IMG/VR virus record: IMGVR_UViG_2930438282_000003 | Span: 1-64,000 of that record | Source: a virus | Lineage: Duplodnaviria; Caudoviricetes | Strand: one strand, 5' to 3' | Length of the DNA stretch: 64,000 nt | Part shown: positions 3,290-34,600 of the stretch, piece by piece | How positions within the stretch are numbered: position 1 is the first letter of the stretch | Layout: each line of letters opens with the position of its first letter | Translations under genes and position numbers: made by a program | Notes under the pieces: generated by a model | Told to the model about the DNA's origin: nothing | The model's database searches: none | What the model saw: only the letters and a program-made list of their open reading frames with translations

Positions 3290-4612
3290 GTGTGGACAAA
3301 CGAAGATCAGGCGGTGGCCGCCGGGCACAGCGTAGTGCCTGCCCGGTGGCGGGCGATGTTCGACCAGCTGATGGGCCGCGTGGCGGGCCGGGTCGCTCGG
3401 GTCGAACCCCGACGTCGCGCAACCGCGTTGGTGCTCGGACTACTCTCGGACCTGCCGAGGAAGAACTGCTGGACGCTGGCCGAGCACGCTGGCGATGCGA
3501 CCCCGGACGGCATGCAGCACCTGCTCCACCGCGCCAAATGGGACGCCGACGCAGTCCGTGATGACGTGCGCGCCTACGTCGTCGACCACCTCGCCGACGA
3601 CCAGGCGGTGCTCGTGGTCGACGAGACGGGCGACCTGAAGAAGGGCACGGCGACCGTCGGCGTCCAGCGCCAGTACACCGGCACGGCCGGCCGCATCGAG
3701 AACGCCCAGGTCGCCGTCTATCTCGTTTACTCCGCCACCCAGGGACACGCAGCCATCGACCGAGCCCTGTACGTGCCACGCTCTTGGACCGAGGACCCGG
3801 ACCGCTGCCGGAGCGCGGGCATCCCGGACGATCTGGCCTTCGCCACCAAGCCCCAACTCGCCGTCCGCATGGTCGAGCGGGCGCTCGACGCGGGAACCCC
3901 CGCACGCTGGGTCGCAGGCGACGAGGTCTACGGCGACAACCCGCACCTGCGAACCGCCCTTGAACACCGCCGGACCGGCTACGTCCTGGCCGTCTCCAGC
4001 ACCCACCCGATCATCACGCACGCTGGGAAGTTCCAGGCAAAGACCCTAACCGCGCGAATCCCGAAGCGGGCCTGGCAACGGCTGTCGGCCGGAACGGGCG
4101 CGAAGGGCGAGCGGTACTACGACTGGGCACAGGTCGACATCCACGACCCCGCCGGTCGGCCCGGCAACTGGTGCCTGCTGGTCCGCCGCAACCGCCGCAC
4201 CGGCGAATTCGCCTTCTACCGCTGCTTCTCACCCCGGCCAATGGCACTGTCCGAACTGGTGCGGGCGGCCGGACGGCGCTGGACGATCGAGGAGACATTC
4301 CAGGCTGGCAAGGGCCTGACCGGCCTGGACGAGCACCAGGTCCGCCGCTGGACCTCCTGGCACCGCTGGGTCACGCTCGCAATGCTTGCCCACGCCTTCC
4401 TTGCCGTCACCGCAGCCACCGAACGCCGCGACCGGCCCGCCCTCGACAACCTGATCCCCTTGACCAGCAACGAGATCCAGCACCTGTTCGCAGCCCTGAT
4501 CAGCCCGGTCCACGACCTCGCACACCGCCTGCGCTGGTCACACTGGCGACGCCGACACCAAGCCCGCGCCCGAGCCTGCCACTACCAACGGCAAGCAACC
4601 GTCCAGCCATAG
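3290..4612 (+). CDS. IS701-family DDE transposase
   Basis: RKNCWTLAE, VVDETGDLKKG, GVQRQYTGTAGRIENAQV, GDEVYG, RWTIEETFQAGKG motifs. Confidence 0.95.
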   Translation: MWTNEDQAVAAGHSVVPARWRAMFDQLMGRVAGRVARVEPRRRATALVLGLLSDLPRKNCWTLAEHAGDATPDGMQHLLHRAKWDADAVRDDVRAYVVDHLADDQAVLVVDETGDLKKGTATVGVQRQYTGTAGRIENAQVAVYLVYSATQGHAAIDRALYVPRSWTEDPDRCRSAGIPDDLAFATKPQLAVRMVERALDAGTPARWVAGDEVYGDNPHLRTALEHRRTGYVLAVSSTHPIITHAGKFQAKTLTARIPKRAWQRLSAGTGAKGERYYDWAQVDIHDPAGRPGNWCLLVRRNRRTGEFAFYRCFSPRPMALSELVRAAGRRWTIEETFQAGKGLTGLDEHQVRRWTSWHRWVTLAMLAHAFLAVTAATERRDRPALDNLIPLTSNEIQHLFAALISPVHDLAHRLRWSHWRRRHQARARACHYQRQATVQP

Positions 4613-5318: not shown

Positions 5319-8300
5319 TCAGAGCTTAGGCGGCAGCCATCCTGTTTGCACCAGCTGCCCGCCGCCACGCCTTGTACAGAAGTAGCCGCGACCGCGTGGC
5401 AGCTTCGACGGCTTAACGTTTCCTAGTAAAGCGCCCTCTGTGGGGCTGCCGGAGAGCACAAGACCCTGGACGCCGAGTTCGAACAGTCGCTGCATCACCG
5501 GCTCGTACATCGACCGGCTAGCACCTGCTGAGCTGCGCGCGATGATGATGCGGAGGCCCAGGTCACGGGCGAAAGGGAGATACTCCAAGAGTGGAGTAAG
5601 GGGGTTCGTTCTCGTCGCCACGAGATCGTAGTCGTCGATGATAAGGAACGCGTCCGGGGCGGTATACCAACTACGGTTACGTAGCTGTTCGGCTGTCACG
5701 TCCGGGCCCGGCATTCGGCGGTAAAGTGAATTGGCTAGCTGTGTCAGCGTCTCCGAAAGGGTGGGTGCCGACGTGCAGTAAGTGGACAGGTGCGACTCTG
5801 GCACGCTCCCCAGGTGGCTACGCCGGTAGTCACCCACGACGATCTTTGCTTGTTCCGGGGTGTAACGCTCTGTGATTTGCTTGATAAGCAGCCTCAGCAC
5901 CGCGGATTTTCCGGACTCGCTCTCGCCGAACACGAGGAAGTATGGATCCATTTCGAAGTCGACGAAGACTGGTGCGAGCGCCGATTCGTCGATACCAATA
6001 GCGACGCCTCGCTCCGGGTGCTCGAACCCTCTGGGCAGCTGCTCCGCAGCCAGCACGGTGGGCAGCAGGCGCACCGGCGGCGCGGGGTTGCCCTGCCAAT
6101 TTTCGTTGATGCTCCGAATCAGAGTCCCCGTCGCCTCCGCTAGGTCCTCTGTTTGCGACGAACCGTCGATCCGTGGCAGTGCCGTAATGAAGTGGAACTT
6201 GTCCGAGGTCAGACCGCGACCCGGGACATCGGCAGGAACATTTAGAGCCACCCTGCGGTCGACCTCCGAGTCGACCGGCTCATGGAGCCGCAGCTCGAGT
6301 CGATTTCGTAGGGTTTCCTTGAGGGCGAACGAAACGTCGAAATAGCGGTTGGCGGTTATAACCACGTGCACACCGAAGTGCAGTCCGCGCGTCGCGACCT
6401 CGGTGACCGACGACGTCAGCTCTTCGTAGTCTGTCTTGAAAGTCGCCCAGCCGTCGATAATGAGGAAGACGTCTCCCCAGGGCTGGTCGGGAAAATATCC
6501 CTCGGCCTTCAGGCGTCGGTACGTCTGAATCGAGTCGATATCGTTCGCGCGGAAGAATTCTTCTCGCGCATCCAAGATACCCGCAACCTCGCTGAGCGTT
6601 CGGCGCACCTTCTCTTCCTGAAGTCGACTAGCGACCCCGCCGACGTGCGCCAAGCCCTCCATCTCGATCAGGCTGCCACCACCAAAGTCGAGGCAGTAGA
6701 TTTGCACTTCTGCTGGTGTGTGGCTGAGTGCAAGCGACGAAATGAGTGCACGCAGCAGAGTTGACTTCCCGGACTGCGGAGCGCCGACGATCAAGCTGTG
6801 GCCCGCATGGCCCGAGAAATCCTGGTACAACACATCACGCCTCTGCTCGAATGGCCTGTCCACTAGGCCCAGAGGTACGACAAGCCGGCCGATATGTGGC
6901 GAGCCGGACCATGTCAGGCCACGGCCCTCGACGGCCGTCAGCGGCGGTCCAAATTCATCGAGCGTCGGTGCTTGGTCTAGCGGTGGTAGCCAGATCTGGT
7001 GAGCCCAAGGGCGCTGATTTTGGAGTTTGTTGATGATGACGTCCATGGGTGAGTCCCCGTCAGGGGTACCCTCATCCCTTTCGAGCCAACCGGAAGCATA
7101 AGCTGCTCGGAAGCCGATCATGTGGTCCATATCGAACCTCAAGTAGCCGGAGCCAGGCACTGCGGGCAGGCTGTAGGCGTCCGGCACACCTAGCACTGCT
7201 CGTGACTCCTCAGCTGAGAAGGTGCGCAGACCGATGCGGTACGACAGGTAAGTTTCTAGACCCCGCAGTCGCCCTTCCTCCAGACGCTGGGAGGCCAGTA
7301 GCAGGTGAATCCCTAGCGAGCGGCCGATGCGGCCGATCTGGATAAGCACTTCAATGAAGTCCGGCTTGGCAGTCAGCAGTTCGGCGAACTCGTCGATGAC
7401 CAGGACCAGCGTCGGCATCGGAGCGAGCGCCGCTCCGGCTGAGCGGGCACGCTCATACTCCTGGATGTTGGGGTAGTTGCCGGCGTCGCGTAGCAACTCC
7501 TGCCGCCGGTTGAGTTCGCCGCGGATCGAATCAGCCATGCGGTCGACTAGTGACGACTCGTTGGCAAGATTGGTGATGACCGCTGCCACATGCGGCAGGA
7601 GCGCCATCGCCGTAAAAGTGGCGCCTCCCTTAAAGTCCACGAGGATGAAGTTCAGTATTTCGGGCGAGTGTCTAACAGACAGTCCGAGGACCAAGGTACG
7701 AAGCAGTTCGGACTTGCCAGAGCCGGTGGCGCCGACGCAAAGGCCGTGTGGTCCCCATCCCCCCAGCGAGGCTTCTTTGATGTCCAGCATGACGGGGGCG
7801 CCGTTGGCATCGACACCCACGGGAGTGGTGAGGCTCTGAGCCGACCTGGGACTCCAGGCGGATGCGGGAGCGGTTTCCCATCCTTCGGGAAGTGACAACA
7901 AGTTCAGCAGACCGGGGTTAGATTCGTCGCCGTCTTGGACTGTGCTCAGCGGTTGGGCTCCGTCCCGCTGCCACGCTGCGGCCACTTTGTGCAGGAGTGC
8001 AGTGAGTTCCTCGCCCTCGTCACTGAAATGGGTGCTTAATGCCGATTCCGCTGGGATCCCAACTCGAGCGAGCGCGGGAGCAGCGACCCGCAAGTATCGC
8101 CGTCCCCTTGTCAATCCGAAGCCTGGCTGCCCCGGGGGGATACCGCTGGCCAGATCACGGTCGATTCGTGACTCTCGTGGGTCGGCGAGGGCGAGTTCGA
8201 CCCAGGTTCCGAGGTGCAGGAGGAGGTCCTCGGGCAGGTCCTTCCATCGGTCGGCGGAGACTGCGAGGTGGATGCCGTAGTAGACACCTTTCTGAGCGAC

Positions 8301-9665
8301 GCGGAGCAAGAGGCGGGACTCATCGGGATAGCGTGCTGCGAAGTCCGGCCAGGAGTCTATAAGGAGGAAGACTTCCCCGTTTGACTCTCCTTCCAGCAGT
8401 CCACGTTCGCGCCTCTGGCGAAAGAGTTTGGGAGACCTAATACGCAAGGCATCGCAGAGTCGCTCGCGTCGTTTGAGTGTGGTCATGATGCCGGCGATGA
8501 GCACGCGTACGTCGTCGCCACTGGCGTAGTCAGCCACCGCGCCCACATGCGGCAGGGTATCCAGGCGTTTCATGCCGTCCGGTTCGCCGTGCAGCCCGAA
8601 AATCTGCACTTCGTCCGGAGTATGGGTCAGCGCTAGGGAACAGGCGAGAGTGCACAGGACTGAGGTCTTGCCGCTCCACCGGCTGCCCACCACGCCAATG
8701 TGTGGCGCGCCGCCGGACAGATCGAGAGTTAAAGTCTCCTGTAGACCCTGTGCCGGGTCGTACATCCTCCCCAGGGGAACCGTGAGCTGACCGTTCGGCG
8801 GCCAGTCGGGAGCGCATAGACCCCGTTGGGAACTCGTCGTGAGTGCGGGCAGTAACTCGCCCAGGAGGAGGCTGTCACCGACAAAGGGGTCGGTCCCCGC
8901 GGCACCGCCCTGGTGCCACAACGCGGCCTTAGCTATGGGAATGTTGCCCTGCACACCCGAGCGGAACTCGGTGGGCGTTTGCGGGGCTCCGCTCTCTCGG
9001 ACGTGCCGCTGGATGTGCTCGAAAAGCTCGTGCGCCGTGACCACACCGTCGTTGTCCCCGTCTGCACGCCCCGTGCTCAAGCCATCCATGATTGCTTCGG
9101 TGAACACGGAGTGGAAGACTCCCGAACGGCTCTTCACTGTCTCGCCTTCGAAGGCAAACTCGAGGCGGTCCGAGGCGGTCATGACGTATGTACCCTTGCC
9201 GGCGACCTGGGCCGACAGGTCACCATCGTCCGGTGCGAAGGGTTCCATCCCTTGTACGTACGCCCCGCCGAAGCAGCAGTCGAGTAGAAGCACCTTGCCT
9301 TGGGCGCGGCAGCGGCTCATCTGCTCTTCAATGAATCGCGCGGAGACCGCAGTCGACTCGGGCAGGTCCCGCTTGGTTCGCAGTGTAGTAAAGAAGAGGC
9401 GTCCGTTCCTGTCTTTGATCCCGTGGCAAGACACGTAGATCAGCAGGGTGTCGGTTGACCCGAGACCCCGCAGTACGTGCTCGATGTGTTCCTCGATCTC
9501 CGCTTTCGAGTCATTGACCAGCGGGATGACTACGTCGAAGTAGCCGATCGCCTCGTCTGCTAGTAACGCGGCCAGGCGACGGGCATCGGATGCGGGTGAG
9601 CGCAGGCGACTCAGTCCGGAGTCGATGTAGTCCGTGGTGGCGATGAGCAGGGCAACGCGGCTCAA
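5319..9665 (-). CDS. Caspase-like (peptidase C14, EACC1-associated type) fused to four EccC-like FtsK/SpoIIIE ATPase domains
   Basis: His/Cys dyad YVSCHG and LLDCCFGG; Walker A motifs GSRWSGKT, GATGSGKS, GAPQSGKS, GESESGKS; EccCa-like DFKGGATF and EccCb-like DRPFEQRRD. Confidence 0.88.
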   Translation of the reverse strand: MSRVALLIATTDYIDSGLSRLRSPASDARRLAALLADEAIGYFDVVIPLVNDSKAEIEEHIEHVLRGLGSTDTLLIYVSCHGIKDRNGRLFFTTLRTKRDLPESTAVSARFIEEQMSRCRAQGKVLLLDCCFGGAYVQGMEPFAPDDGDLSAQVAGKGTYVMTASDRLEFAFEGETVKSRSGVFHSVFTEAIMDGLSTGRADGDNDGVVTAHELFEHIQRHVRESGAPQTPTEFRSGVQGNIPIAKAALWHQGGAAGTDPFVGDSLLLGELLPALTTSSQRGLCAPDWPPNGQLTVPLGRMYDPAQGLQETLTLDLSGGAPHIGVVGSRWSGKTSVLCTLACSLALTHTPDEVQIFGLHGEPDGMKRLDTLPHVGAVADYASGDDVRVLIAGIMTTLKRRERLCDALRIRSPKLFRQRRERGLLEGESNGEVFLLIDSWPDFAARYPDESRLLLRVAQKGVYYGIHLAVSADRWKDLPEDLLLHLGTWVELALADPRESRIDRDLASGIPPGQPGFGLTRGRRYLRVAAPALARVGIPAESALSTHFSDEGEELTALLHKVAAAWQRDGAQPLSTVQDGDESNPGLLNLLSLPEGWETAPASAWSPRSAQSLTTPVGVDANGAPVMLDIKEASLGGWGPHGLCVGATGSGKSELLRTLVLGLSVRHSPEILNFILVDFKGGATFTAMALLPHVAAVITNLANESSLVDRMADSIRGELNRRQELLRDAGNYPNIQEYERARSAGAALAPMPTLVLVIDEFAELLTAKPDFIEVLIQIGRIGRSLGIHLLLASQRLEEGRLRGLETYLSYRIGLRTFSAEESRAVLGVPDAYSLPAVPGSGYLRFDMDHMIGFRAAYASGWLERDEGTPDGDSPMDVIINKLQNQRPWAHQIWLPPLDQAPTLDEFGPPLTAVEGRGLTWSGSPHIGRLVVPLGLVDRPFEQRRDVLYQDFSGHAGHSLIVGAPQSGKSTLLRALISSLALSHTPAEVQIYCLDFGGGSLIEMEGLAHVGGVASRLQEEKVRRTLSEVAGILDAREEFFRANDIDSIQTYRRLKAEGYFPDQPWGDVFLIIDGWATFKTDYEELTSSVTEVATRGLHFGVHVVITANRYFDVSFALKETLRNRLELRLHEPVDSEVDRRVALNVPADVPGRGLTSDKFHFITALPRIDGSSQTEDLAEATGTLIRSINENWQGNPAPPVRLLPTVLAAEQLPRGFEHPERGVAIGIDESALAPVFVDFEMDPYFLVFGESESGKSAVLRLLIKQITERYTPEQAKIVVGDYRRSHLGSVPESHLSTYCTSAPTLSETLTQLANSLYRRMPGPDVTAEQLRNRSWYTAPDAFLIIDDYDLVATRTNPLTPLLEYLPFARDLGLRIIIARSSAGASRSMYEPVMQRLFELGVQGLVLSGSPTEGALLGNVKPSKLPRGRGYFCTRRGGGQLVQTGWLPPKL

Positions 9666-9680
9666 GGTCTCTCCTGGCGC

Positions 9681-10073
9681 CTACGACTGCCCGCTGCTGC
9701 CGGACCGCCGCTGAAGCCAGGTCTCGAGCAGAACTCTTTGGTCACGGCTTGAATTTCCCTCGATAACCAGCGAGTCTTCACCGTCGGTAAGTTCAACGCG
9801 TCGAGCTTGCGCCCGCTGCCGCCACTCGCTCACCAGGCTGACCATTGCGCTTAGCGCCGCCCGCGAGAACACCCCGGTGACGAGAAGGGTTCCGAGTGTC
9901 GTAGCCGTGCCGCTCTTGGCGCCTGACGGCGCTGCTTCCCCCTCCGGTCGCGTGACGGACTGCGCGGTGTCGAGCAGGAGCAGTTCTTCCTGTAGCTCCC
10001 GGGTCAGTGTGTCCGTCTCTTCGGCGTCACCGTCCTCCGCCTCGATCGAGACGACGATCTGCATGGGTTGCAT
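9681..10073 (-). CDS. Effector-associated constant component EACC1-like protein
   Basis: 130 aa, LTRELQEELLLLD...APSGAKSG...LGTLLV hydrophobic segment; directly upstream of the caspase gene. Confidence 0.75.
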   Translation of the reverse strand: MQPMQIVVSIEAEDGDAEETDTLTRELQEELLLLDTAQSVTRPEGEAAPSGAKSGTATTLGTLLVTGVFSRAALSAMVSLVSEWRQRAQARRVELTDGEDSLVIEGNSSRDQRVLLETWLQRRSGSSGQS

Positions 10074-10296
10074 TGAGTGATTCCCCCTATCGCTCTCAGG
10101 TTCTGTGGTTACCCAGGGGCCTTGGCCGCAGCCAGGACTCGGCCTTGTGGAGAACAGCAGCCTGGCATAGAACCACCCTTGTCAGCATCCCCGTTGGTCA
10201 CTTCGAGACCCGAGGTTGTGGAAGCCTTGTGGCTTCCCACCGGACCTCCACTGCTGTGCGGCTCGCGTGAAACCTGCTGACCATAACCACTGCTCC

Positions 10297-10384
10297 TGAC
10301 CTGCGGGTTCTTAGAAATTCTTTTGCCAAACGTCATTTGCGCTACAAGGTTAGGGCAACCTGTTCAGGCAAAGAATGGAAGTAG
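10297..10384 (+). repeat. Conserved upstream hairpin element, copy B
   Basis: TGACCTGCGGGTTCTTAGAAATTCTTTTGCC...GGTTAGGGCAA...GGCAAAGAATGGAAGTAG. Confidence 0.85.
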
Positions 10385-10420
10385 TACCACTCACCAACCC
10401 CTACAGAGAAGGACAGCCAC

Positions 10421-14702: not shown

Positions 14703-17700
14703 GTGCCCTACATCAACTCCACCTCCCGCTCCTGGGCGGCAGCATCCGCCGAGGCCAACGCCCCCAAGCGAGTCCGCGCCTACAAGCACGACGGCGGCGA
14801 TCTGTGCGTGTCAGATTGGTTCGCGGGATGCGGAGGCTCCGGACAGGGCGCTGATGCGGTCCCCGGCCTGCGCGTGGCCTTCGCCGCGAACCACTGGCGG
14901 CAGGCCATCAAGAGCCACCAATTCAACTTCCCGGGCGTTGCGCACTACATCGGTGACATCCGCAAGGCCCCTGTCTGGGCCTGGCCGATCACAGACGTCT
15001 TCTGGGCCAGCCCGGAATGCTTCCCGGCCGGAACGCTGATCCTCACCCGACGTGGCCATGTCCCCATCGAGGACGTCCAGGTTGGTGACGAGGTGTTCAC
15101 GCACGAACGCCGGTGGCGGCCGGTCAAGGTCACCATGCGCAAGCTCGCCGAGACCGTGCGCGTGAAGGGCGTCGGATTCGCGGGCGGCATCGAGACCACC
15201 GCAGAGCACCCCTTCTACACCCGCCAGCGAACGAAGGTCTGGCAGGACAAGAGGCATGGCTACCGATGGAGGCTCACCGGTTCACCCGAGTGGACCGAGG
15301 CGAAGAACCTGCAAGGCCGGATGTGGGCAACGCCGATCGACTTCGGTGAGGAGCTACCCGTCCCGCCGGTAGGCGGCCGGGGTGTCGACCAGAACCGCGA
15401 GTTTTGGTGGATGGTCGGCCGCTGGCTCGGCGATGGTTCGCTGCGGCTTAAGCCACGCACCGCGGCCCGCCTGAAGCAGCCGGCCACCCGCCGCGCTCCG
15501 CGCCCAGCCGGCTCCCCGTGCGTCGTCTGTGGGGGTGCGGCCCGTCCCGACGGACGGAGCAACGCGGGCCAGGTGTCGCCCTACTGCTCTACCACCTGCA
15601 AGGCGAAGAACAGCCGGAAGTCCGAGCGCGGCCGGTTCGAGGTGGTCATCTCTTGCGGAAAGCACGAGGTGCAGGAGTTGGGTGCCCGCCTCGCCGAGAC
15701 CACCGGACTCCGCTGGAACCTGCGGGAGATCCGGACGGCCTGCAACTTCACCACGGGGCATTGCGGCCTGACCGAGTGGCTGGTCGAGCACTTCGGTCAG
15801 CACGCGGACGGCAAGGGGCTCCCGGCCTGGGCGCTGACGATGCCCGAGGCTGACCGGCGCGCGTTGCTCCAGGGGTACCTGTCGGCCGACGGCTGTGTGA
15901 GCGCTCCGTACACCTCGATGGCCACGGTCTCCAAGCGCCTCGCGGTCGGTATTCGGCTGCTCGCCAACTCCCTCGGGTACGTCGCGAACATGTCCGGCCC
16001 GCACGTCCGCAAGGGCGTGCGCACCATCGAAGGTCGGGTGGTCAACGAGCGTCCGCAGTGGAAGGTCAACTGGATCACCGATGGCCCGAAGCACGCCTTC
16101 CACGTCGATCAGGACGGGTACCGGTGGGCGCCGGTCAAGTCGGTGGAGCCCACCGGGCGCACGGTTGAGGTCTTCAACCTGAGCGTGGCCGAAGACGAGT
16201 CGTACATGGCCAACGGAATCATGTCGCACAATTGTACGAACTGGTCTATTGCCAAGGGTAAGAAGCGCTCCTTCGCCAAGGCCGTTCAGGGTGACCTGCT
16301 CAGCCTGTATGCGGACATGGAGGAGGAGAAGTTCAAGACGGCCGACCAGGAGGACAACGAGCCGACCGCAGAGGAGGAAGCCAGCCGGGCACTGATGGAA
16401 GAGGTGCCTCTGTACCTGCGCGGGGTGATCGAACGCGGCGGCCTCATCAAGGCCGGTGTGGTCGAGAACGTGGTCGATGTCCGGGCCTGGGCCGAGTGGG
16501 ATGCGTGGCTGGCGGAGTTCCACAAGCTGGGCTACCGGACGCGGGTCATCGCGCTGAACAGCATGCACGCCAACCCGCGCAGAGTGCACCGCGCCCCGCA
16601 GTCCCGCGACCGGCTGTACGTCGGCTACTGGCACAAGAGCCTGGGCCGGACGCCTGACTGGGACAAGTGGCTGCGCCCCAAGGCGTACTGCGCCGGCTGC
16701 GACGAGATGGTTTCCGCCCTGCAGGTCTTCCGCAAGCCCGGCCAGGACATGGGCCGGTACAAGTCGAGCTACGACTACAGGTGCCCGCGCAAGAGCTGCC
16801 GCGCGCTCGTCGACCCGGACGTCCTGCCCGCCGCGGCGGCGATCGACTGGTCCATCAAGGGCACGCCGATCGGCTCCCGCCCGAAGTCGAAGGAGTGCCC
16901 GGAGGGCCTGGCCCCGAACACGATGGCCCGTATCCGGGCCGGGATCGCGAAGTACTGGCCGCAGCCCGGCGAGCAGGTCGGCCAGGAGGCCCTGTTCGAC
17001 GACCAGCCCGCCGGGAAGGTCGCCCCGTTCCTCGTCCCGACCGGCGGCACCTGGCGCAACGGCCCGGCCGGGGTGGACGTCCCGATGTCGACCCGGACGA
17101 CGGTGGAGAGCGACGCCCTGGTCCTCCCGCCCATCCTGATCCCCTGCGAAGGCCGCGAGGGCAAGAAGCCGATGTCCCTTGACGGCCCGCTGCGGACCCA
17201 GACGGCCCGGCTGGAAACGGCGCTCGCCTACGTCCCGTTCGTGGTCCCGATGCGCGGCGGCGGCGACAAGGAGAAAGCGCGGTACGTCAGCCACCCGGTC
17301 CACACGGTCTCGGCCGGCGGCAACCATCACGGCCTGGTCATGGCACCCCGCCCGCTGATCATGCGGAACAACACCCCGAACGGCGATCCCGCCCAGATGG
17401 TCACCGGCGCCGACGAGCCGTTCCGGACCATGACGACCACCGGCCACCAGTCGCTGATCACGCCGGACCCGCTGCTCGTCCCGTACTACGGCAACGGCCA
17501 GGCCCGCCCGACCAGTGAGCCCGTCGGCGCCCTGCCCACCCGTGACCGGTTCGCCCTCCTCGACGCCGACGGCGAGTACGACGTCTCGAAGGTGCTGTTC
17601 CGGATGCTTCAGCCCAAGGAAATCCAGCGGGCGATGGCGTTCGCGGACGACTACAAGATCCTGGGCAGCAAGCGCGACACCGTCCGGCAGCTGGGGAACG

Positions 17701-17816
17701 CGGTTACCCCGAACGCGGCCGAGGTCCTGCTGTGCGCGCTCGTCGAGTGCATCACCGGCGAGGAGATCGACCGCTACGCGCCGCCCGCCGAGCTGGAGTT
17801 CGCCACGACCGCCTGA
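14703..17816 (+). CDS. C5-cytosine DNA methyltransferase precursor containing an intein
   Basis: DWFAGCGG motif I, ANHW, SPE-C-TNWS motif IV (split), VENV motif VI, QSRDR motif VIII, QLGNAV motif X. Confidence 0.93.
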   Translation: MPYINSTSRSWAAASAEANAPKRVRAYKHDGGDLCVSDWFAGCGGSGQGADAVPGLRVAFAANHWRQAIKSHQFNFPGVAHYIGDIRKAPVWAWPITDVFWASPECFPAGTLILTRRGHVPIEDVQVGDEVFTHERRWRPVKVTMRKLAETVRVKGVGFAGGIETTAEHPFYTRQRTKVWQDKRHGYRWRLTGSPEWTEAKNLQGRMWATPIDFGEELPVPPVGGRGVDQNREFWWMVGRWLGDGSLRLKPRTAARLKQPATRRAPRPAGSPCVVCGGAARPDGRSNAGQVSPYCSTTCKAKNSRKSERGRFEVVISCGKHEVQELGARLAETTGLRWNLREIRTACNFTTGHCGLTEWLVEHFGQHADGKGLPAWALTMPEADRRALLQGYLSADGCVSAPYTSMATVSKRLAVGIRLLANSLGYVANMSGPHVRKGVRTIEGRVVNERPQWKVNWITDGPKHAFHVDQDGYRWAPVKSVEPTGRTVEVFNLSVAEDESYMANGIMSHNCTNWSIAKGKKRSFAKAVQGDLLSLYADMEEEKFKTADQEDNEPTAEEEASRALMEEVPLYLRGVIERGGLIKAGVVENVVDVRAWAEWDAWLAEFHKLGYRTRVIALNSMHANPRRVHRAPQSRDRLYVGYWHKSLGRTPDWDKWLRPKAYCAGCDEMVSALQVFRKPGQDMGRYKSSYDYRCPRKSCRALVDPDVLPAAAAIDWSIKGTPIGSRPKSKECPEGLAPNTMARIRAGIAKYWPQPGEQVGQEALFDDQPAGKVAPFLVPTGGTWRNGPAGVDVPMSTRTTVESDALVLPPILIPCEGREGKKPMSLDGPLRTQTARLETALAYVPFVVPMRGGGDKEKARYVSHPVHTVSAGGNHHGLVMAPRPLIMRNNTPNGDPAQMVTGADEPFRTMTTTGHQSLITPDPLLVPYYGNGQARPTSEPVGALPTRDRFALLDADGEYDVSKVLFRMLQPKEIQRAMAFADDYKILGSKRDTVRQLGNAVTPNAAEVLLCALVECITGEEIDRYAPPAELEFATTA
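15018..16232 (+). mobile_element. Intein (405 aa) with LAGLIDADG-type homing endonuclease
   Basis: Starts CFPAGTLILT, block B TAEHPF, LAGLIDADG-like MVGRWLGDG and LLQGYLSADG, ends VFNLSV...MSHN followed by Cys. Confidence 0.92.
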
Positions 17817-20073: not shown

Positions 20074-20148
20074 GCGCCGGAGGTGTAACCGCCGCACGGC
20101 TCCCATTCCAGGGAGCAGGACCACGTTCAAGTCGTGGCCGGCGCTCCA
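20074..20148 (+). tRNA. Non-canonical tRNA-Gly-like gene (75 nt, encoded CCA)
   Basis: Cloverleaf: acceptor GCGCCGG/CCGGCGC, D stem GTGT/GCAC, anticodon stem GCTCC/GGAGC around CATTCCAG, T arm CCACG-TTCAAGT-CGTGG, T73 then CCA. Confidence 0.85.
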
Positions 20149-20153
20149 CGACG

Positions 20154-20180
20154 GGCCCCCGCCATCCCAGGGCGGGGGCC
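20154..20180 (+). terminator. Hairpin downstream of the tRNA-like gene
   Basis: GGCCCCCGCC / GGCGGGGGCC stem followed by TTCGT. Confidence 0.55.
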
Positions 20181-20274
20181 TTCGTCATGCCCCGCAAACC
20201 ACCCTCGGGCCTCGATTGCCCCAGGTCAGCTATCTTTGCCGCCCTTTGTCTCCAGGACCTCGCAGGAGCGGCCC

Positions 20275-21630
20275 ATGTTCCACGGATCGATCCCCGCCCC
20301 CCTCCGCTCGATCATCTACGAGCACGCCGGGACCTGGCCCGGCGAGGACATCTACGTCGGCTGCTCCGGGAACTTCACCATCGAACGGGTGCTGCACGCC
20401 CGGTTCGGCGACACCCGCCGCGTCCACGGCAACGACATCCAGGCCTACAGCTGCGCCCTCGGCTGGTACCTCGCCGGGCAGGACCTCCACTACACCCTGC
20501 GCGACGAGTACGAGGAGCCCCTCGGCTGGCTCCACCCCTACCTGGAGGACCGCACCGATCTTCTCGCCACCCTCATGCTGGGCACCCGGTTCCTGCAGTA
20601 CGTCGGCAAGGACGGCGCCTACTACCGGCGCATGCTGGACGCCACCCGAGAGCAGTGGCCGCGCATGCACGAGAAGACCGCGACGAAACTGCGGAACCTG
20701 GAGACCCGCCTCGGCTCGTTCTTCGCCGGCGACGTCCGCGACTACCTGGACACCGAAGTCCCTGCCGACGCCCCCGTGGTCATGTTCCCGCCGTTCTACG
20801 CGTCGGACTATCAGGCCCAGTTCGCGCCGATCGACGCGGCGTTCGACTGGCCCGAGCCGTCGTTCGACGAGCTGACCGAAGACGGCAAGGAACGCATCAT
20901 CGAACAGGTCCAGGACCGGCCGAACTGGGTCCTCGGCCTGCACATCGAACGCCCCGAACTGCGGGACAAGCTCGCCGGCGTCGTCCAGACCGCGAACCGC
21001 GGCCTCCCCATCTACGTGTACGCGGCGGCCGGGCCGCGCCGTATCGTCCGGCCCCGGCAGCCCATCGAAACGATCCGCATGCCGAAGATCAGCCCCGGTG
21101 AGGACCTCGGCGACCGCATGACGATCCACGTCCTCACCGGCGGCCAGTTCGCCGCGATCCGCTCCCAGTTCATGTCCAAGAGCATCAAGCCCGGCAGCCC
21201 GCTCATCGCGTGCGCGGTCGCCGTCGACGGCAAGGTCATCGGCGCGTTCGCGTACCTGCCGCCGAAGTTCGACCCGAACACCGCCTACCTCATGAGCGAC
21301 TTTCCCGTGTCGTGGACCCGCTATCGGCGTCTCGCGAAGCTGATCGTGATGGCCGCGTCCACGAAAGAGGCGCAGCTCCTCGTCCAACGGTCCCTGTCGA
21401 AGCGGATCGACGCCTGGTCGACGACCGCGTTCACCGACCGCCCCAACAGTGCGAAGTACGGGCGCGGCATCCCCGGCGTGAAGCTGCAGAAACGCACCGA
21501 GGCCAGCCCGAAGGACCCCGGCGACGGCATCCACCGCTACCAGCTCCAGTACGGCGGCCCCCTCGGCACTTACGACCTGAACGAAGCGCTCACCCTGTGG
21601 AAGACCAAGCACGGCAAGGACCTGCGATGA
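20275..21630 (+). CDS. Putative DNA-modification enzyme: degenerate Dam-like MTase domain plus C-terminal GNAT-like domain
   Basis: YVGCSGNFTIE...HGNDI SAM-binding-like region; FPPFY in place of DPPY; C-terminal VAVDGKVIGAFAY / AYLMSDFPV / RYRRLAKLIV / TTAFTD pattern resembling GNAT; AGGAG SD before ATG 20275. Confidence 0.65.
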   Translation: MFHGSIPAPLRSIIYEHAGTWPGEDIYVGCSGNFTIERVLHARFGDTRRVHGNDIQAYSCALGWYLAGQDLHYTLRDEYEEPLGWLHPYLEDRTDLLATLMLGTRFLQYVGKDGAYYRRMLDATREQWPRMHEKTATKLRNLETRLGSFFAGDVRDYLDTEVPADAPVVMFPPFYASDYQAQFAPIDAAFDWPEPSFDELTEDGKERIIEQVQDRPNWVLGLHIERPELRDKLAGVVQTANRGLPIYVYAAAGPRRIVRPRQPIETIRMPKISPGEDLGDRMTIHVLTGGQFAAIRSQFMSKSIKPGSPLIACAVAVDGKVIGAFAYLPPKFDPNTAYLMSDFPVSWTRYRRLAKLIVMAASTKEAQLLVQRSLSKRIDAWSTTAFTDRPNSAKYGRGIPGVKLQKRTEASPKDPGDGIHRYQLQYGGPLGTYDLNEALTLWKTKHGKDLR

Positions 21631-29722: not shown

Positions 29723-31126
29723 TCAAGTCGGTTGAGCGCAAGGCACGGGCCTGCCGGCGCCCCGGTGTTTGCGCTGTTTGGTGGTCTGGTTATGCGCCCA
29801 TCGCCCCGGTGCGACCTTGCTGCGGCCGCTCCGGGTTCTCAGGATCGGCCACCGCATCGGTTTCTTGATCGCTCGGGGCCAGTCCCGGCCGGACCGGGGC
29901 GGCAGCAGACAGGACCGCGCTTCCTGGATGGCCCCCTTCCAGACGTTGGTCAGCGTGCGCCTGGAGGTGCCGTGCTGGGACGGTACGCTGCGCCGGGCGA
30001 TCCGGACGCAGCGGAGGTAGGAGAGTCGGTCGGCATCCAGGACCGGGCCGTTCGCCGCGGCGTCGTGCGCGAACCGACGGACGGCCTGGTGGACCGCGAG
30101 TACGGCCCACAGCTCCTGCCGCACGGCTTCAGGGGTGCGCGATCGGAGCGGTCCGCCGGGGCCGAGGTGGTTCTTGATCTCGTCGAAGGCCAGCTCGATC
30201 TCCCAGCGCTGCCGGTAGAGGGCGATCAGCTCGTCCGCCGGGTACTGCTCGGTGTCCAGCAGGGACGTGCCCAGGTGCACGGCCTTGTCGTTCTTGGTGA
30301 AGGTGATGACGCGGTAGGTCGTCTCCTGCGGCAGGACCCGGCCTTCGCGGGCTGCCCGGAGGAGGACGTCCTTGCCGGGGCGCATCAGGGACAGCCGGGA
30401 GCCGTCAGGCAACTCCGCCTGAGTGGTACCGAGGTGGTTGGATTGGAGCCTGGCCAGCAGATGGGCGCCGGACGTGGTGAAGGCGTGGCCGAATTCGACC
30501 GACCAGAACCCGCGGTCGGCGATGACGAGATCCCCGGGGCTTGTCGAGCTGGCCAGCGGGTAGGCCAGGCGCCGTTCGCCGTCCCGGTAGCCGCCCAGGC
30601 CGGCGTCGAGGATGGCGTGGGTGCCGATCTCCGCGAGCACGGCAGCTCGCACCTGCGGAAAGCCGAACGGCGTCCCGCCTGTAGAGGGGCCGTCGAAGGT
30701 ATCGCCGTTGCCCACCGAGTCCGGCACGTCGAACTGTGTGCCGTCCAGCGCCAGGAGGCGCAGACCACGCCACCACGCGCCGGGCGTCTCCGGGACCGCC
30801 AGCGGGCCGGCCACTTGCCGGAATACCGTTTCCAGCACCTCTTCACCGAGCCGGACTCGTGCCCGGCACAGCGACGATCGGTTGGCCCGGGACAGGGCCC
30901 GGCTGCCAGGTATGCCGCTGGTCAGCATGCGTATCACCTCCTCGTACGACTCCCGGGCGAACAGGCACAGCCCGAGCACGAAGTACACGACCAGCCGGGC
31001 CGGAAGCAGTCGACGCCGCAGCTCACCCTGCCCGTGCTTGACAACAGCCGCGTCCACGAGCTCCGGCGTGAACACCTTGGTCACGATCCCTATGCGCGAC
31101 CGGCACCCCGGCCCCCACCCCTCCAC
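29723..31126 (-). CDS. IS4-family transposase
   Basis: RRRLLPARLVVYFVL N-terminal domain, ALDGTQFDV, IADRGF, YRQRWEIELAFDEIK. Confidence 0.93.
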   Translation of the reverse strand: MEGWGPGCRSRIGIVTKVFTPELVDAAVVKHGQGELRRRLLPARLVVYFVLGLCLFARESYEEVIRMLTSGIPGSRALSRANRSSLCRARVRLGEEVLETVFRQVAGPLAVPETPGAWWRGLRLLALDGTQFDVPDSVGNGDTFDGPSTGGTPFGFPQVRAAVLAEIGTHAILDAGLGGYRDGERRLAYPLASSTSPGDLVIADRGFWSVEFGHAFTTSGAHLLARLQSNHLGTTQAELPDGSRLSLMRPGKDVLLRAAREGRVLPQETTYRVITFTKNDKAVHLGTSLLDTEQYPADELIALYRQRWEIELAFDEIKNHLGPGGPLRSRTPEAVRQELWAVLAVHQAVRRFAHDAAANGPVLDADRLSYLRCVRIARRSVPSQHGTSRRTLTNVWKGAIQEARSCLLPPRSGRDWPRAIKKPMRWPILRTRSGRSKVAPGRWAHNQTTKQRKHRGAGRPVPCAQPT

Positions 31127-31557
31127 GAGCAGGTCAACGGACCAGCCGACTCGAAAGCACCTGCATTGGCATAGTCCAGCCCCCGCACTCGGGCCGACTC
31201 AGTGTGCGTCCACCTGGTCGACCAGGTGGACGGGGCTCCGATGGCGGCCTCATGGAACCTGCGGACAGGGGGCTGAGGCGCCCGTCCTGGTAGCGCCGAT
31301 CGGCGGCATCCACTACGCAGATCAGCTCCCGTGGCTTGGCGAAGTCGTCGGTGTCGGGGAGGTCGGGCCGCCGTGGGCCCTGCCGATACCAGCTCCCGTG
31401 CCACTCGTGCAGCGACTGGAAGGGGCCCGGGCCTGACCCGGAGCAGCTTGGCGATACGTCCGCTGACCAGTGAGGACTACTGTCGGTAATTTTTGCTGCC
31501 TAGCTTTTCCCCTGGCGTCCAGTGCCAGTCCGCGGATGCTCTGCGACCGCAAGGCCA

Positions 31558-31628: not shown

Positions 31629-34600
31629 CTACGCGTCTGGGCCCAGGGAAGCCAGGTCGAAGGCGTTGCTGATGGCGCTGTAGCCGTCGTTGGTGAGGTT
31701 GACGTGGTCGCCTGCGTCGAAGTCGTCAGGCGCCGCGGCGCTGTTGAGCATGAGAGCAGGCGGATCTGTCACGCTCGCTGGGTCCGGGACCGCCACGGTG
31801 GATTCCGTGTCGACATAGCTGACGGTGGGTGTGGTGAAGTCGGTCTGGTCGGTGATCCAGGTATTGATGTCGGTCCGGTTTTGATCTGCCGTGGCTGTGC
31901 AGGCTGCGTAGCCGGAGCATGGAGTGAGAGTGGTGAATATGATCTTGATGCCCCAGCCTCTGAGTTGGGCGCGGAGGGTGTCAAAGGACTCCGACAGGGT
32001 GGTGGCGTCGGTACCAGCGAGAATGTCCTTGAGTCCCTCGTCGATGATGACCGTCTTGATGTTCGGCAGATCGAGGACGTCGCGATCGAGGCGGCCGAGT
32101 AGTGCCGGTCCGCCCCAGGTCTGAGGGGTGGTGAGGCTGTTGTTTTCAATGCCGGAGGCTACGACCCCGTAGTTTGGGACGCCCTGGGTGTTGTTCTGGA
32201 GGGCGTTGGCGAGATTATCGGCGGTCCTTGGAGCAGAGAGGACCTCAGTGTTTCCCGTGGCGTAGGGGTCGATGAGGTTGTCGCCGATGACGGAGACGGT
32301 GGGTTGGTCGTCAGCGGTGACGACGTCGATGTCGCTAAGGACATGGGTGCAGTAGCAGCCGGTGGTAAACGCAGTTGCAGAGGTGTCGGTGGTGTGATCG
32401 CCGGTGTCAGGTGCAGTCCAGTACTCGTGGGAGGCGCTGCTCGAGGAGTGTTCGATCAGGTAGTAATTGTCGTTGACGAGGTGAAGGCTGATCACCACGT
32501 TGTGGCCGGCCGTGGTAGCGAAGTCGATCGGGTCGCTGTAGATCTCGCCGCCGCGCGGGATGGTGATGGTGCTGTTGCCGCTGAAGGTCAGGTTTCGCGG
32601 TGTCGTCGAGGTTGCCGCTCCGCTTGCTTGACCGGCGATCGTGACATGGTCGATGGTCAGAGCGTTCACGCCGAGGGCGTTGGACAGACGGATGCGCGTG
32701 CTCGATCCAGTGACGCTGGTGGTGGCAGCGATCCGGATCGACTGGTTTTTCCAGTCACCCATGGAGGTGTTGTGCACGTCGTCCTCCGGCGGTGAGCTCC
32801 AGGCGCCGGTCCAGGATGCGCCGCCAGGGGCAGTGGTGGTGTTGCGTACGGCCATTCCGAAGATGTGTAGCCCGGGAACATACTGGCGGGCGGTGTCGCT
32901 GAGGTCCGGGAGGGTCACGGAGTTGAGCTGGGCGCCTGGCTTGAGGGGGATAGCGAAGGCGTAGATGTTGTTAGTGAACGTCTCTTGTGTGCCGTTGGTG
33001 TGGTTGCGGTGGGGAAGTGAGACCGTGGCCAGGGGGTTCGAGCCCCGGACCCAGTCCGGGACAGTCAGGTGGTAGGTGCCGGTGCTGCCGTCGGAGTAGG
33101 CGATGGAGCCGTAGGGGCCGCCCGCCCGGCAGTCTTCGTACTGTCCGTTACCGAGGGTGCACTCGGTTCCGCTGACATTGGTGCCGTCAGGGATGACAGG
33201 GCTGGAGTAGTCGTCTTCCGCACGTTGGGAGCTGACGAGTCCGTTGATGGAGAAGCCAAGAAAGACCAGAGCCTGACCGCTGGTGTTGTTCATGTTGATG
33301 GTCTGGTTGGCGGCCATCACGTTGTCGCCGGACGCGGAGGCGAAGTTGGGCAGGGTGAAGGTTGCACCGTCCACGGTGATCTTCCCGCCGGGCTGCCAGC
33401 CGGCGGCTTTGAGGTCCTGCAGGGACATGGTGCCGCCGAATCCGTCCGCGTCGGCGGCCGCTTGGTTGCTGTCGTCGGTGACGGCAGTGCTGTTGAAGGC
33501 ATCCTGGAGGCTGGCGTAGGTGTGGCCCACGTGGCCGAGAGCGGTGAACTGGTATTGCTGCTGGCTGGAGACGTTCCCGGCGGCGTCGACGGCATACACG
33601 TAGAGGGTGTGCGTTCCGGGCGCGGTGGGAGTGAGGGTGACCTGAGCTTTATTGCTGGAAGCGGTAACCGTCTGGGAGCTGGGGGTGTTCGAAGTGGGTG
33701 GCCTGACGTCCAGGTTGTAGAGAAACTTGGTTGCGCTGTCGGTGGTGAAGGTGAAACGACCGCCGGTACCGGCCGCAGTGATGCCTGGGGTGTCCTCGGG
33801 ATAGAGGCCGTCGGCGGTGGTGACGGTCGGTGCGTTCGGAGCAGTGAGGTCTACGGTGAAGTGGCAGGTAGATGAGGCGGGGCTGGTGTCCTTACCGTCG
33901 CTGGAGGTGACGCTCCAGCTGACCACGTCACCGTTCTTCAGCCCGCTCATGAACGTCGAGGACAGGGACTTAGGGGCGTTCTGGCCGCTGGCGACCGTGG
34001 CGCTGGCGGTTGTGGTGGCGGTGCCGCTGTTGACCCAGTACTTGTAGGTCGCCGCCAGGGCGTCCTTGTCGCCGTCGCTGACGGTCGCGTTCAGGGTCGG
34101 TGGCGTGGTGGCCAGGGTCTTGCCGACGACCGACGGCGTCGTGGTGCTGCAGCCGACCGAGTGTGTGCCGAACTTGGTGGCCAGGCTGGTGGGTTTGGTG
34201 GGGATGTGGTTGTACTCGATGGACATCGTCGGGTTGGTGGCGAAGCGTTTGAAGTAGTTGCCGTCGCTGCTGGCCTCTCGGCTGCTGACGAGGGCGAAGG
34301 TCCAGCTGGAGTTCTTCGCAGCGGCCTTGCTGGCGATCGTGGACGTCACCGCGAAACTGCCCGAAGGCTCACTGCTGCAGGCCGGCCCGAAACTCTTGGT
34401 AGCCAGCAGGCTGGACAGAGCGGGCCTGCTGCTCCAGGTGGTGGAGGAGCTGATGGACCCGGAGAGGTAGAGCTTGACGTCGGCGCTGTAGTCGCAACCG
34501 GCCGAGTAGCTCTCCATGGCGTCGACCGTGGCGGAGACGATGTGGGTGCCCCAGACGGCGGAGGGGATGCCGAGTTGGAAGTAGGAGCGCTCGGTGCCGA

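What the first reader, a model, noticed from the sequence alone, without database searches (positions are those of the whole stretch)
5319..10073. EACC1 plus caspase fused to a membrane-less, four-domain type VII secretion EccC ATPase
Seen: an intact His-Cys caspase-like domain is followed by an extra EccCb-like domain, the EccCa ATPase domain and a complete EccCb. There are no TM helices and no other T7SS genes in the window. Known: EACC1-caspase pairs are predicted conflict systems in which the caspase carries variable C-terminal domains, and EccC ATPases oligomerise on binding WXG100 substrates. Inference: a captured T7SS ATPase used as sensor or decoy that activates proteolysis (possibly of EACC1) when T7SS substrates or phage inhibitors bind.
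Basis: partly seen in the sequence, partly recalled or inferred. Interest (0 to 1): 0.72.

Follow-up and report, generated by a model that had tools for sequence, protein, structure and literature searches.

The report
EACC1-caspase suicide module with EccC sensor
This is a two-gene bacterial cell-suicide or defence module, of a kind already described, in which a caspase-like protease that probably cuts a small pore-forming partner is fused to a soluble copy of the type VII secretion motor, which most likely acts as its sensor.

Summary
On the minus strand a 130-aa EACC1-like gene (9681-10073) is followed after 15 nt by a 1448-aa ORF (5319-9665). That ORF has an EACC1-type caspase domain (NF047832, 164.9 bits, cut-off 140), an extra D2-like P-loop domain (D0), EccC D1 and a complete EccCb (D2-D3). 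It has no TM or DUF region. No EccB, EccD, EccE, WXG100 or full EccCa was found in the 110-kb record.

It is neither unique nor decaying. 71 of 119 listed relatives carry the same fusion, as do 14 of 401 sampled Streptomyces species, one of them an unpublished genome. The catalytic His/Cys and the Walker motifs are conserved, and dN/dS is 0.13-0.27.

The kind is known. It is System 4 of Kaur et al. 2020, and Evans et al. 2025 (preprint) showed that EACC1 is a caspase-activated pore toxin and mention EccC fusions in one sentence.

What I add is that the protein is a mosaic. Its caspase-D0-D1 part belongs to the fusion lineage. Its D2-D3 part is nearest to canonical EccC (70-74% identity, against at most 62% to any fusion). 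Three D3 positions that line the Esx-tail pocket in T. curvata EccC are identical to those of these canonical EccCs.

The likely mechanism, all inferred, is ligand-driven oligomerisation, then caspase activation, EACC1 cleavage and a membrane pore. The trigger is unknown. Verdict: a new member of a known kind.

The parts
9681..10073 (-). EACC1-like small protein (P0002, 130 aa), the predicted latent pore-forming effector. The AF2 model gives b1 4-11, a1 17-32, b2 37-41, a disordered loop 46-57 (candidate cleavage region), b3 60-67, a2 71-88, b4-b5 92-105 and a3 109-127.
5319..9665 (-). Caspase-EccC fusion gene (P0001, 1448 aa, TTG start preceded by AGGAGA, 15 nt after the EACC1 stop codon)
8916..9665 (-). 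EACC1-associated-type caspase (C14) domain, aa 1-250. His81 is the codon at 9423-9425. Cys130/Cys131 lie in DCCFGG; the Cys131 codon is at 9273-9275.
7980..8880 (-). D0, an extra FtsK-like P-loop domain, aa ~262-562. It is D2-like in sequence: 35% identical to the protein's own D2 and 38-42% to canonical D2, with no match to the DUF region. Walker A is GSRWSGKTS (K333); Walker B Asp is D437.
7047..7979 (-). D1, aa 563-873, matching EccCa model positions 385-671. It is the only domain with a Walker B Asp-Glu (D758-E759). Walker A Lys is K651.
6186..7046 (-). D2, aa 874-1160 (K967, D1071). With D3 it forms the complete EccCb module.
5322..6185 (-). D3, aa 1161-1448 (K1253, D1344). S1294, L1310 and A1339 are homologous to T. 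curvata EccC I1163, I1179 and L1208, which line the Esx-tail pocket.
6876..6968 (-). Approximate recombination breakpoint (aa ~900-930). Upstream of it P0001 is closest to other fusions; downstream it is closest to canonical EccC.
10074..10384 (.). Divergent intergenic region between the module and the phage-like ParB gene. It presumably holds the promoter, but no sigma-70 consensus site was found.

Best explanation
This is a stand-alone two-gene EACC1-caspase cell-death or defence cassette. The small protein is a latent pore-forming toxin held inactive by its N-terminal strands. The large protein is a cytosolic sensor-protease. Its EccC-derived ATPase stack (D0-D1-D2-D3) binds a ligand and, as canonical EccC does on binding an Esx tail at D3, multimerises. 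That brings the N-terminal caspase domains together and activates them. They then cut EACC1 in its disordered loop (about residues 42-57), the C-terminal fragment oligomerises into a membrane pore, and the cell or hyphal compartment dies (abortive infection).

Shown here: the domain make-up, conserved catalytic and nucleotide-binding residues, the operon structure, the invariable pairing with EACC1, recurrence, purifying selection, the mosaic origin of D2-D3, and identity with the nearest canonical EccCs at three D3 positions homologous to Esx-tail pocket residues.

Inferred from published work on relatives: cleavage of EACC1, pore formation, and activation by oligomerisation.

Open: the trigger. 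My best guess (about 0.35) is a protein carrying an Esx/WXG100-type C-terminal tail. It could be an invader's protein, or the cell's own substrates piling up when T7SS is blocked.
For: Family membership:
- The caspase scores above the NF047832 'EACC1-associated type' cut-off.
- The small protein belongs to the EACC1 superfamily through its relatives.
- Its AF2 model (pLDDT 78) has N-terminal strands, a disordered loop at 46-57 and two C-terminal strands. This fits Evans et al.'s description of an autoinhibitory N-terminal fragment, cleavage near residue 49 and a toxic C-terminal fragment.

Operon: ribosome-binding sites precede both starts, and the gap between the genes is 15 nt.

Pairing: an EACC1-like ORF lies directly upstream in 15 of 15 distinct fusion loci. 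One of these, L020, is from the unpublished genome G132.

Conservation in 69 aligned fusions:
- His81 and Cys131 in 69 of 69.
- Walker A Lys in 69 (D0), 66 (D1), 67 (D2) and 68 (D3) of 69.
- D1 Asp-Glu in 59 of 69.

Selection: dN/dS against the S. triticisoli orthologue is 0.13-0.27.

Cassette behaviour: homology to two relatives' loci is confined to 5331-10106. Their flanks are ordinary chromosomal genes, with no T7SS or phage genes.

Canonical EccC coexists with the fusion in S. triticisoli and Spirillospora.

Sensor logic: the third NBD of EccC binds the last seven residues of EsxB, and this drives multimerisation of the soluble part (PMC7384006 passages citing Rosenberg 2015).

D2-D3 of P0001:
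- It is 70-74% identical to canonical 1314-aa EccCs, against at most 62% to any fusion.
- It nests among 37 canonical sequences with support 0.973, while D1 sits in an all-fusion clade of 22.
- The three pocket positions are S/L/A, as in 11 of 11 nearest canonical EccCs.
Against: - No experiment exists on any EccC-type member. In the library searched, the only mention is one sentence in a preprint.
- P0002 itself fails the Pfam and NCBIfam EACC1 models.
- No candidate ligand (WXG100) is encoded in the 110-kb record.
- The host genome beyond the record could not be examined, so I could not check whether it has a T7SS or an EccC like the D2-D3 module.
- In 11 Streptomyces genomes that hold both a fusion and a canonical EccC, the fusion's D2-D3 is not generally closest to the resident EccC. 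The best resident ranks 1, 2, 3, 3, 3, 5, 6, 7, 11, 12 and 14 of 17, at 45-69% identity. Matching to the cell's own T7SS is therefore not a general rule.
- The three pocket positions vary among fusions, so different members may see different ligands.
- Evans et al. report that protease activity was constitutive in vitro for EACC1-KrAvs12, so activation by oligomerisation is not proven even there.
Confidence: 0.7

Rival explanations
1. Guard or decoy version of the same module. The soluble EccC copy mimics the cell's own T7SS motor and is bound by a phage or plasmid protein that normally targets EccC (an inhibitor or hijacker). The module would then report an attack on T7SS rather than bind Esx-type substrates.
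For: D1-D3 are 60-70% identical to canonical Streptomyces EccC. D2-D3 has been replaced by a canonical-type module in P0001 and in P0013 (84-86% identical to canonical P0094/P0096 in D2 and D3 but 68% in D1). T7SS parts can matter to phages: YueB of B. subtilis is cited as a phage receptor (passage in PMC4010439). I also recall that S. scabies ESX machinery mutants were reported to be phage-resistant (Fyans et al. 2013). That paper is not held, so this is recall only.
Against: No phage protein that targets EccC is known to me. Fusion D2-D3 does not track the resident canonical EccC in 11 genomes. The extra D0 domain and the missing TM/DUF region make it an imperfect mimic.
Confidence: 0.15
2. 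Developmental or stress-linked programmed cell death. The module reads the cytosolic level of the cell's own Esx substrates (linked to sporulation in Streptomyces) and kills hyphal compartments. It would not be an anti-phage system.
For: EACC1 systems are strongly enriched in multicellular bacteria (650 of 671 organisms; Kaur et al. 2020, Table 1). The ESX system of S. scabies is cited as modulating sporulation and development (passage in PMC4010439). Evans et al. raise non-defence stress roles for EACC1-DnaK fusions.
Against: The distribution is patchy (14 of 401 species). The cassette sits in unrelated contexts. Here it has atypical GC3 (0.71 against 0.85-0.94 in neighbours) and lies next to a transposase. 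These are marks of a mobile accessory gene, not of a core developmental one.
Confidence: 0.08
3. The original Kaur et al. reading: the C-terminal EccC part is an effector released by caspase autoproteolysis, for instance a soluble ATPase that jams T7SS or traps its substrates, and EACC1 is a membrane sensor.
For: Kaur et al. 2020 proposed that the variable C-terminal domains are effectors and EACC1 a membrane-associated sensor (section 33). They note FtsK ATPase domains among the effector domains of related systems.
Against: Evans et al. showed for EACC1-KrAvs12 that EACC1 is the toxic effector and the C-terminal Avs part the sensor. Kaur et al. predicted the FtsK domains in their systems to be inactive, whereas here the Walker motifs of all four domains are conserved.
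Confidence: 0.05
4. A soluble accessory or regulatory T7SS ATPase with no cell-death role, with the caspase processing T7SS substrates.
For: The EccC-type D1-D3 domains are complete and their motifs conserved.
Against: There are no T7SS genes near it here or in two relatives. It is always paired with EACC1. The caspase belongs to the EACC1-associated subfamily.
Confidence: 0.02

Closest known systems
EACC1-caspase two-gene system ('System 4', Kaur et al. 2020, PMC7159879). Mechanism shown for EACC1-KrAvs12 by Evans et al. 2025 (bioRxiv 10.1101/2025.11.14.688446), who also mention EccC-homologue fusions (Fig. 6A, Suppl. Fig. 12; supplement not seen).
   Same: A small EACC1 gene lies 5' of a gene with an N-terminal EACC1-type caspase and a variable C-terminal part. 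The catalytic His/Cys are intact. The predicted EACC1 fold has a cleavable loop.
   Different: The sensor is a four-P-loop EccC derivative instead of an Avs/STAND NTPase. The EACC1 here is a divergent subfamily that falls below the Pfam threshold. No experiment exists for this subtype.
Canonical T7SSa EccC (closest solved structure: Thermomonospora curvata EccC, PDB 4NH0, 1037 bits)
   Same: D1, D2 and D3 are 60-70% identical to Streptomyces EccC. The Walker pattern is the same (Asp-Glu only in D1). The D3 pocket positions equal those of one canonical clade.
   Different: There are no transmembrane helices and no DUF domain. A D2-like D0 domain and a caspase take their place. The gene is not in an ESX locus and coexists with canonical EccC in relatives.
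FHA-domain proteins with four FtsK-like domains (~1820 aa; P0103, P0105, P0116)
   Same: They are apparently soluble multi-ATPase EccC relatives (42-57% identical in D1-D3) with an extra ATPase domain upstream of D1.
   Different: The N-terminus is FHA rather than caspase. Their extra domain is D1-like, not D2-like. They form a separate clade. Their function is unknown to me.
Bacterial gasdermin-protease systems and other protease-activated pore toxins (Pepco)
   Same: The logic is the same: a sensor-linked protease removes an inhibitory piece from a pore-former.
   Different: The effector folds are unrelated. This comparison is by analogy from Evans et al. and was not tested here.

Membership tests
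EACC1-caspase two-gene system | 5' gene encoding an EACC1 domain (PF19953) | tested here: met
   P0002 itself has no hit. Membership holds through relatives: 11 of 17 close homologues hit PF19953; 40 of 81 scanned sequences (P0002 plus 80 family-profile hits) hit PF19953 and nothing else; 29 of 30 ESM-Atlas hits lie in EACC1 clusters; two upstream ORFs of distant fusions score 22.6 and 21.7 bits over model positions 3-104 of 107, with the cut-off at 23.6. This is membership by transitive homology.
EACC1-caspase two-gene system | 3' gene with an N-terminal caspase of the EACC1-associated type and an intact His/Cys dyad | tested here: met
   NF047832 scores 164.9 bits against a cut-off of 140. 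His81 and Cys131 are invariant in 69 of 69 fusions.
EACC1-caspase two-gene system | Conserved adjacency of the two genes, with a variable C-terminal part on the caspase protein | tested here: met
   An EACC1-like ORF lies directly upstream in 15 of 15 distinct loci (L020 is from the unpublished G132). Other EACC1-type caspases in Streptomyces sit in ORFs of 405-1349 aa without D0.
EACC1-caspase two-gene system | The caspase cleaves EACC1, and the C-terminal fragment forms a membrane pore | not testable with these tools
The only support is an AF2 monomer with a disordered loop at 46-57.
T7SS EccC motor ATPase | N-terminal transmembrane helices and DUF domain (EccCa model positions 1-376) | tested here: not met
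   TIGR03924 is matched only from position 377/385 onward, at 469 bits against a cut-off of 509. The maximum hydropathy is 1.54. D0 has no BLAST match to the DUF region of canonical EccC.
T7SS EccC motor ATPase | Three FtsK-like ATPase domains D1-D3, including a complete EccCb | tested here: met
   TIGR03925 scores 751.8 bits over positions 3-563 of 564. The best PDB match is 4NH0.
T7SS EccC motor ATPase | Encoded in an ESX locus with EccB, EccD, EccE and WXG100 substrates | tested here: not met
   None of these was found in the 110-kb record. None of the 10 flank ORFs scanned, chosen from the 10-kb flanks of two relatives, matched a T7SS family. Mycosin was not searched, and the host genome beyond the record is not available.

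The most novel reading that the evidence does not exclude
The EccC half is a surveillance copy of the type VII secretion motor. Its substrate-reading module (D2-D3) is occasionally replaced by recombination with canonical eccC genes. This would let the suicide module recognise Esx-type secretion signals, or proteins that attack the T7SS motor, brought in by phages or conjugative elements, making it an immune sensor built from a secretion-system ATPase and tuned by module swapping. If so, these fusions would also offer a soluble, genetically readable reporter of how EccC recognises substrates.
Probability: 0.25. Interest if true: 0.75.

Novelty: new member of a known kind. Interest (0 to 1): 0.42.

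Why it matters
The system type (EACC1-caspase) and its killing mechanism are already described, and the EccC fusion has been mentioned in print, so the finding itself is not a discovery. Two things are of use. First, it documents the subtype: a caspase, a D2-like extra domain and D1-D3, with no membrane anchor, a split variant, and presence in about 3% of sampled Streptomyces species. Second, the substrate-recognition half has been exchanged with canonical eccC, and three D3 positions homologous to Esx-tail pocket residues match the nearest canonical EccCs. That gives a concrete, testable guess at the trigger, namely Esx-type C-terminal tails. It also offers a soluble system in which ligand-induced EccC multimerisation has an easy read-out, cell death.

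Tried and rejected
- Within-genome homogenisation with the resident eccC was tested in 13 Streptomyces genomes that carry a fusion. Eleven also have a canonical D2-D3 match at E<=1e-100. It was rejected as a general rule.
- Monophyly of the fusions in a D1-D3 tree was rejected; they interleave with canonical EccC.
- Whether the module is prophage cargo is unresolved. The record is an IMG/VR 'provirus', and phage-like genes start at 10385. The 10 kb to the left have no convincing PHROG hit. The 10 ORFs scanned there gave one marginal match (phrog_25989, unknown function, E 4e-4, to ORF 1279-1761), and there is a DDE_5 transposase. No tRNA, no tyrosine integrase and no att-like repeat longer than 21 nt between the left 10.5 kb and the rest was found. 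A scan of viral contigs with two motifs found no other fusion, only one distant caspase.
- The scan of genome contigs with the single protein gave only 2 loci, so I switched to the genome search.
- Sequencing runs: no RNA holder is listed, and the only full holder may be the source assembly.
- Earlier findings of this scan: none by sequence or for EccC.
- PADLOC gave only generic FtsK/HerA-type and caspase hits (mad8, SspH, HerA, caspase).
- Fyans et al. 2013 could not be read.
- A first mafft run timed out and was repeated with faster settings.
Full report
WHAT IS THERE

The window is high-GC (0.62-0.72). On the minus strand an ORF of 130 aa (9681-10073, P0002) is followed after 15 nt by an ORF of 1448 aa (5319-9665, P0001, TTG start). 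Both starts have ribosome-binding sites: AGGGGGA 8 nt before the ATG at 10073, and AGGAGA 4 nt before the TTG at 9665.

NCBIfam and Pfam searches on the whole protein and on four pieces give this layout:
- aa 4-224: caspase, EACC1-associated type (NF047832, 164.9 bits, cut-off 140; Pfam Peptidase_C14 43.9 bits).
- aa ~268-537: an extra FtsK-like domain whose best match is the first half of EccCb (model positions 31-293, 221 bits). I call it D0.
- aa ~573-858: EccCa model positions 385-671 only (469 bits). This is D1, without the membrane and DUF part of the model.
- aa 882-1449: the whole EccCb model (751.8 bits). This is D2-D3.

No 19-residue window of P0001 exceeds a mean hydropathy of 1.54. 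By BLAST, D0 is 35% identical to the protein's own D2 and 38-42% to the D2 of canonical EccC. It has no match to the DUF region. D1, D2 and D3 are 70, 62 and 60% identical to a canonical Streptomyces EccC.

THE SMALL PROTEIN

P0002 matches no Pfam or NCBIfam model, even at E<=10. It is nevertheless a divergent EACC1:
- 11 of its 17 close homologues (64-80% identical) hit PF19953, best E 7e-5.
- A profile of the family finds 1459 cluster representatives at E<=0.001 and 325 at E<=1e-10, mostly 120-140 aa and aligned end to end.
- I scanned 81 sequences: P0002 plus 80 of the 150 listed hits. Of these, 40 hit PF19953 (best 3.1e-9) and none hit any other family.
- 29 of 30 ESM-Atlas feature neighbours are clusters in which 35-47% of members carry PF19953.

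The AF2 model (pLDDT 78, pTM 0.70) has two N-terminal strands and a helix, a disordered loop at 46-57, then a strand-helix element and two C-terminal strands. Evans et al. describe, for the Ktedonobacter EACC1, an N-terminal fragment that pairs with two C-terminal strands, cleavage at Asp49 and a toxic C-terminal fragment (passages read). The model agrees with that description.

NOT UNIQUE, NOT DECAYING

- Of the 119 relatives listed other than the query's own record, 71 have the caspase N-terminus. 68 are full length (1385-1601 aa), 2 are 857-aa forms from Actinomadura, and 1 is a fragment. They come mostly from Streptomyces, and also from Sphaerisporangium, Saccharopolyspora, Amycolatopsis, Nocardia and Actinocatenispora, by the sources' names.
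- In Spirillospora the gene is split into caspase-D0-D1 and a separate D2-D3 ORF.
- In an even sample of 401 Streptomyces species genomes, 14 have one ORF spanning caspase plus D0. One of the 14, G132, is an unpublished genome; without it the count is 13 of 400.
- An EACC1-like ORF lies directly upstream in 15 of 15 distinct loci (one of them, L020, is from G132).
- In an alignment of 69 fusions, His81 and Cys130/Cys131 are invariant. The Walker A lysines are kept in 69, 66, 67 and 68 of 69 for D0 to D3. The Walker B aspartates are kept in 69, 65, 67 and 69. Only D1 has the Asp-Glu pair (59 of 69).
- Against the S. triticisoli orthologue, dN/dS is 0.13 (caspase), 0.13 (D0), 0.17 (D1), 0.19 (D2) and 0.27 (D3).

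CONTEXT

The window is the first 64 kb of a 110,357-b IMG/VR record classed as a provirus. Phage-like genes begin at 10385 on the plus strand, divergent from the module. They include a ParB-like gene, methyltransferases, a C5 methylase with an intein, a DAM-like/GNAT phage protein, a weak terminase match and a Mu-F-like gene. To the left of the module there is no convincing phage match; the only PHROG hit is one marginal match (phrog_25989, unknown function, E 4e-4, to ORF 1279-1761). There is also a DDE_5 transposase at 3290-4612.

The module's GC3 is 0.71-0.74. Its neighbours have 0.85-0.94, and its orthologues in two other genomes have 0.86 and 0.97.

Homology to those two genomes is confined to 5331-10106. 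Their flanks hold ordinary chromosomal genes: CstA, an FAA hydrolase, an arabinofuranosidase and a GDSL lipase. The pair therefore behaves as a mobile two-gene cassette. Whether it lies inside the prophage here is unresolved: I found no tRNA, no tyrosine integrase and no att-like repeat, and no other viral contig with the fusion.

The record holds no full EccCa, EccB, EccD, EccE or WXG100. Two relatives that carry the fusion also have full-length canonical EccC.

MOSAIC ORIGIN

Several results show that P0001 joins two histories.
- Against its nearest fusion relatives (P0004-P0013), P0001 is 85-88% identical in the caspase, 81-86% in D0 and 69-82% in D1, but only 58-63% in D2 and 54-60% in D3.
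- A search with residues 874-1448 alone gives canonical 1314-aa EccC proteins as best hits (70-74% identity over the full length). The best fusion reaches 62%.
- A sliding window places the switch near residues 900-930.
- In trees of 193 sequences, D1 of P0001 sits in an all-fusion clade of 22 (support 0.73-0.90). Its D2-D3 nests in a clade of 39, of which 37 are canonical (support 0.973).
- dS against the S. triticisoli orthologue jumps from 0.55-0.73 (caspase to D1) to 1.35-1.71 (D2, D3).
- A second case is fusion P0013. Its D2 and D3 are 84-86% identical to canonical P0094/P0096, while its D1 is 68%.
- In the D1-D3 tree of 116 sequences the fusions are not monophyletic.

Against a simple 'tracks the resident motor' idea: in 11 genomes holding both a fusion and a canonical EccC, the best resident canonical ranks 1, 2, 3, 3, 3, 5, 6, 7, 11, 12 and 14 of 17, at 45-69% identity. 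The closest D2-D3 is usually that of another fusion (50-83%). Exchange with canonical eccC is therefore sporadic, not continuous.

THE D3 POCKET

PMC7384006 (abstract and passages read) states that the last seven residues of EsxB bind NBD3 of EccC, that I1163, I1179 and L1208 line this pocket in T. curvata EccC, and that tail binding drives multimerisation of the soluble part while linker 2 keeps NBD1 inhibited.

In the phmmer alignment to PDB 4NH0, an offset of 168 puts I, I and L at exactly those chain positions. This validates the mapping. The homologous residues of P0001 are S1294, L1310 and A1339. All 11 of the nearest canonical EccCs have the same S/L/A, whereas fusions as a group vary at positions 1294 and 1339. 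The ligand site of this protein is thus the same as that of one canonical EccC clade.

MECHANISM

Shown here are the anatomy, the conservation and the evolutionary pattern. Taken from published work on relatives are two points: EACC1 is a pore toxin released by caspase cleavage, with the caspase's C-terminal part as the sensor (Evans et al.); and EccC multimerises on binding an Esx tail.

My inference is that a ligand binding at D3 (perhaps also at linker 2), together with nucleotide, multimerises the D0-D3 stack. That brings the caspase domains together. They cut P0002 in its loop, and the C-terminal fragment forms pores.

The trigger is unknown. An Esx-type tail on an invader's protein, or the cell's own substrates accumulating when T7SS is blocked, is my preferred guess (about 0.35). 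A decoy for proteins that attack EccC is the main alternative.

COMPARISON AND NOVELTY

The pair passes the tests for the EACC1-caspase system. It fails two defining features of a working T7SS EccC, the membrane/DUF part and the ESX locus. It is therefore an EccC-derived domain stack, not an EccC.

Searches of the paper library for EACC1, for caspase/EccC/FtsK/defense and for Streptomyces/T7SS/phage/EccC found only one text linking EccC with EACC1. [quoted passage not shown] Fig. 12; the supplement could not be seen). Kaur et al. 2020 do not name EccC, and mention FtsK only for other systems.

Earlier notes of this scan treat other EACC1-caspase pairs with unusual tails as family members. None has EccC.

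Verdict: a new member of a known kind. The domain layout, the mosaic D2-D3 and the pocket identity are, as far as these searches show, not in print.

Noticed in passing
window 14703-17816 (+): A 1037-aa ORF with a C5 cytosine DNA-methylase C-terminus, interrupted by an intein (Hint_2, LAGLIDADG_3 and Intein_splicing matches).
   Followed up: no
window 31629-35852 (-) and 36112-43086 (+): Two divergent giant ORFs (1407 and 2324 aa) inside the phage-like region. They have no PADLOC hit and only a weak OSK-domain match. The region has lower GC (0.63-0.66) and a sharp GC-skew flip. Their function is unknown.
   Followed up: partly
window 3290-4612 (+) and 29723-31198 (-): Two transposase genes: a DDE_5 family one just left of the module and an IS4 family one inside the phage-like region.
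   Followed up: no
window 5319-10073 compared with its flanks: The module has GC3 of 0.71-0.74. Neighbouring genes have 0.85-0.94, and its orthologues in S. triticisoli and Spirillospora have 0.86 and 0.97. The cause is unexplained; recent import from a lower-GC donor is one possibility.
   Followed up: partly
proteins P0103, P0105, P0116 (other genomes): Proteins of about 1820 aa with an FHA domain followed by four FtsK-like domains related to EccC D1-D3 (42-57% identical). They are a second apparently soluble EccC-like family with an extra, D1-like domain.
   Followed up: partly
L005 9595-14343 (Spirillospora sp.) and P0086/P0087 (Actinomadura): A split form of the system: EACC1, an 857-aa caspase-D0-D1 protein, and a separate D2-D3 ORF. 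This mirrors the EccCa/EccCb split of some ESX systems.
   Followed up: partly
window 20089-21630 (+): A fusion of a phage DAM-like domain with a phage GNAT-like domain (PF22555 at 1e-104, PF22559 at 2e-57).
   Followed up: no
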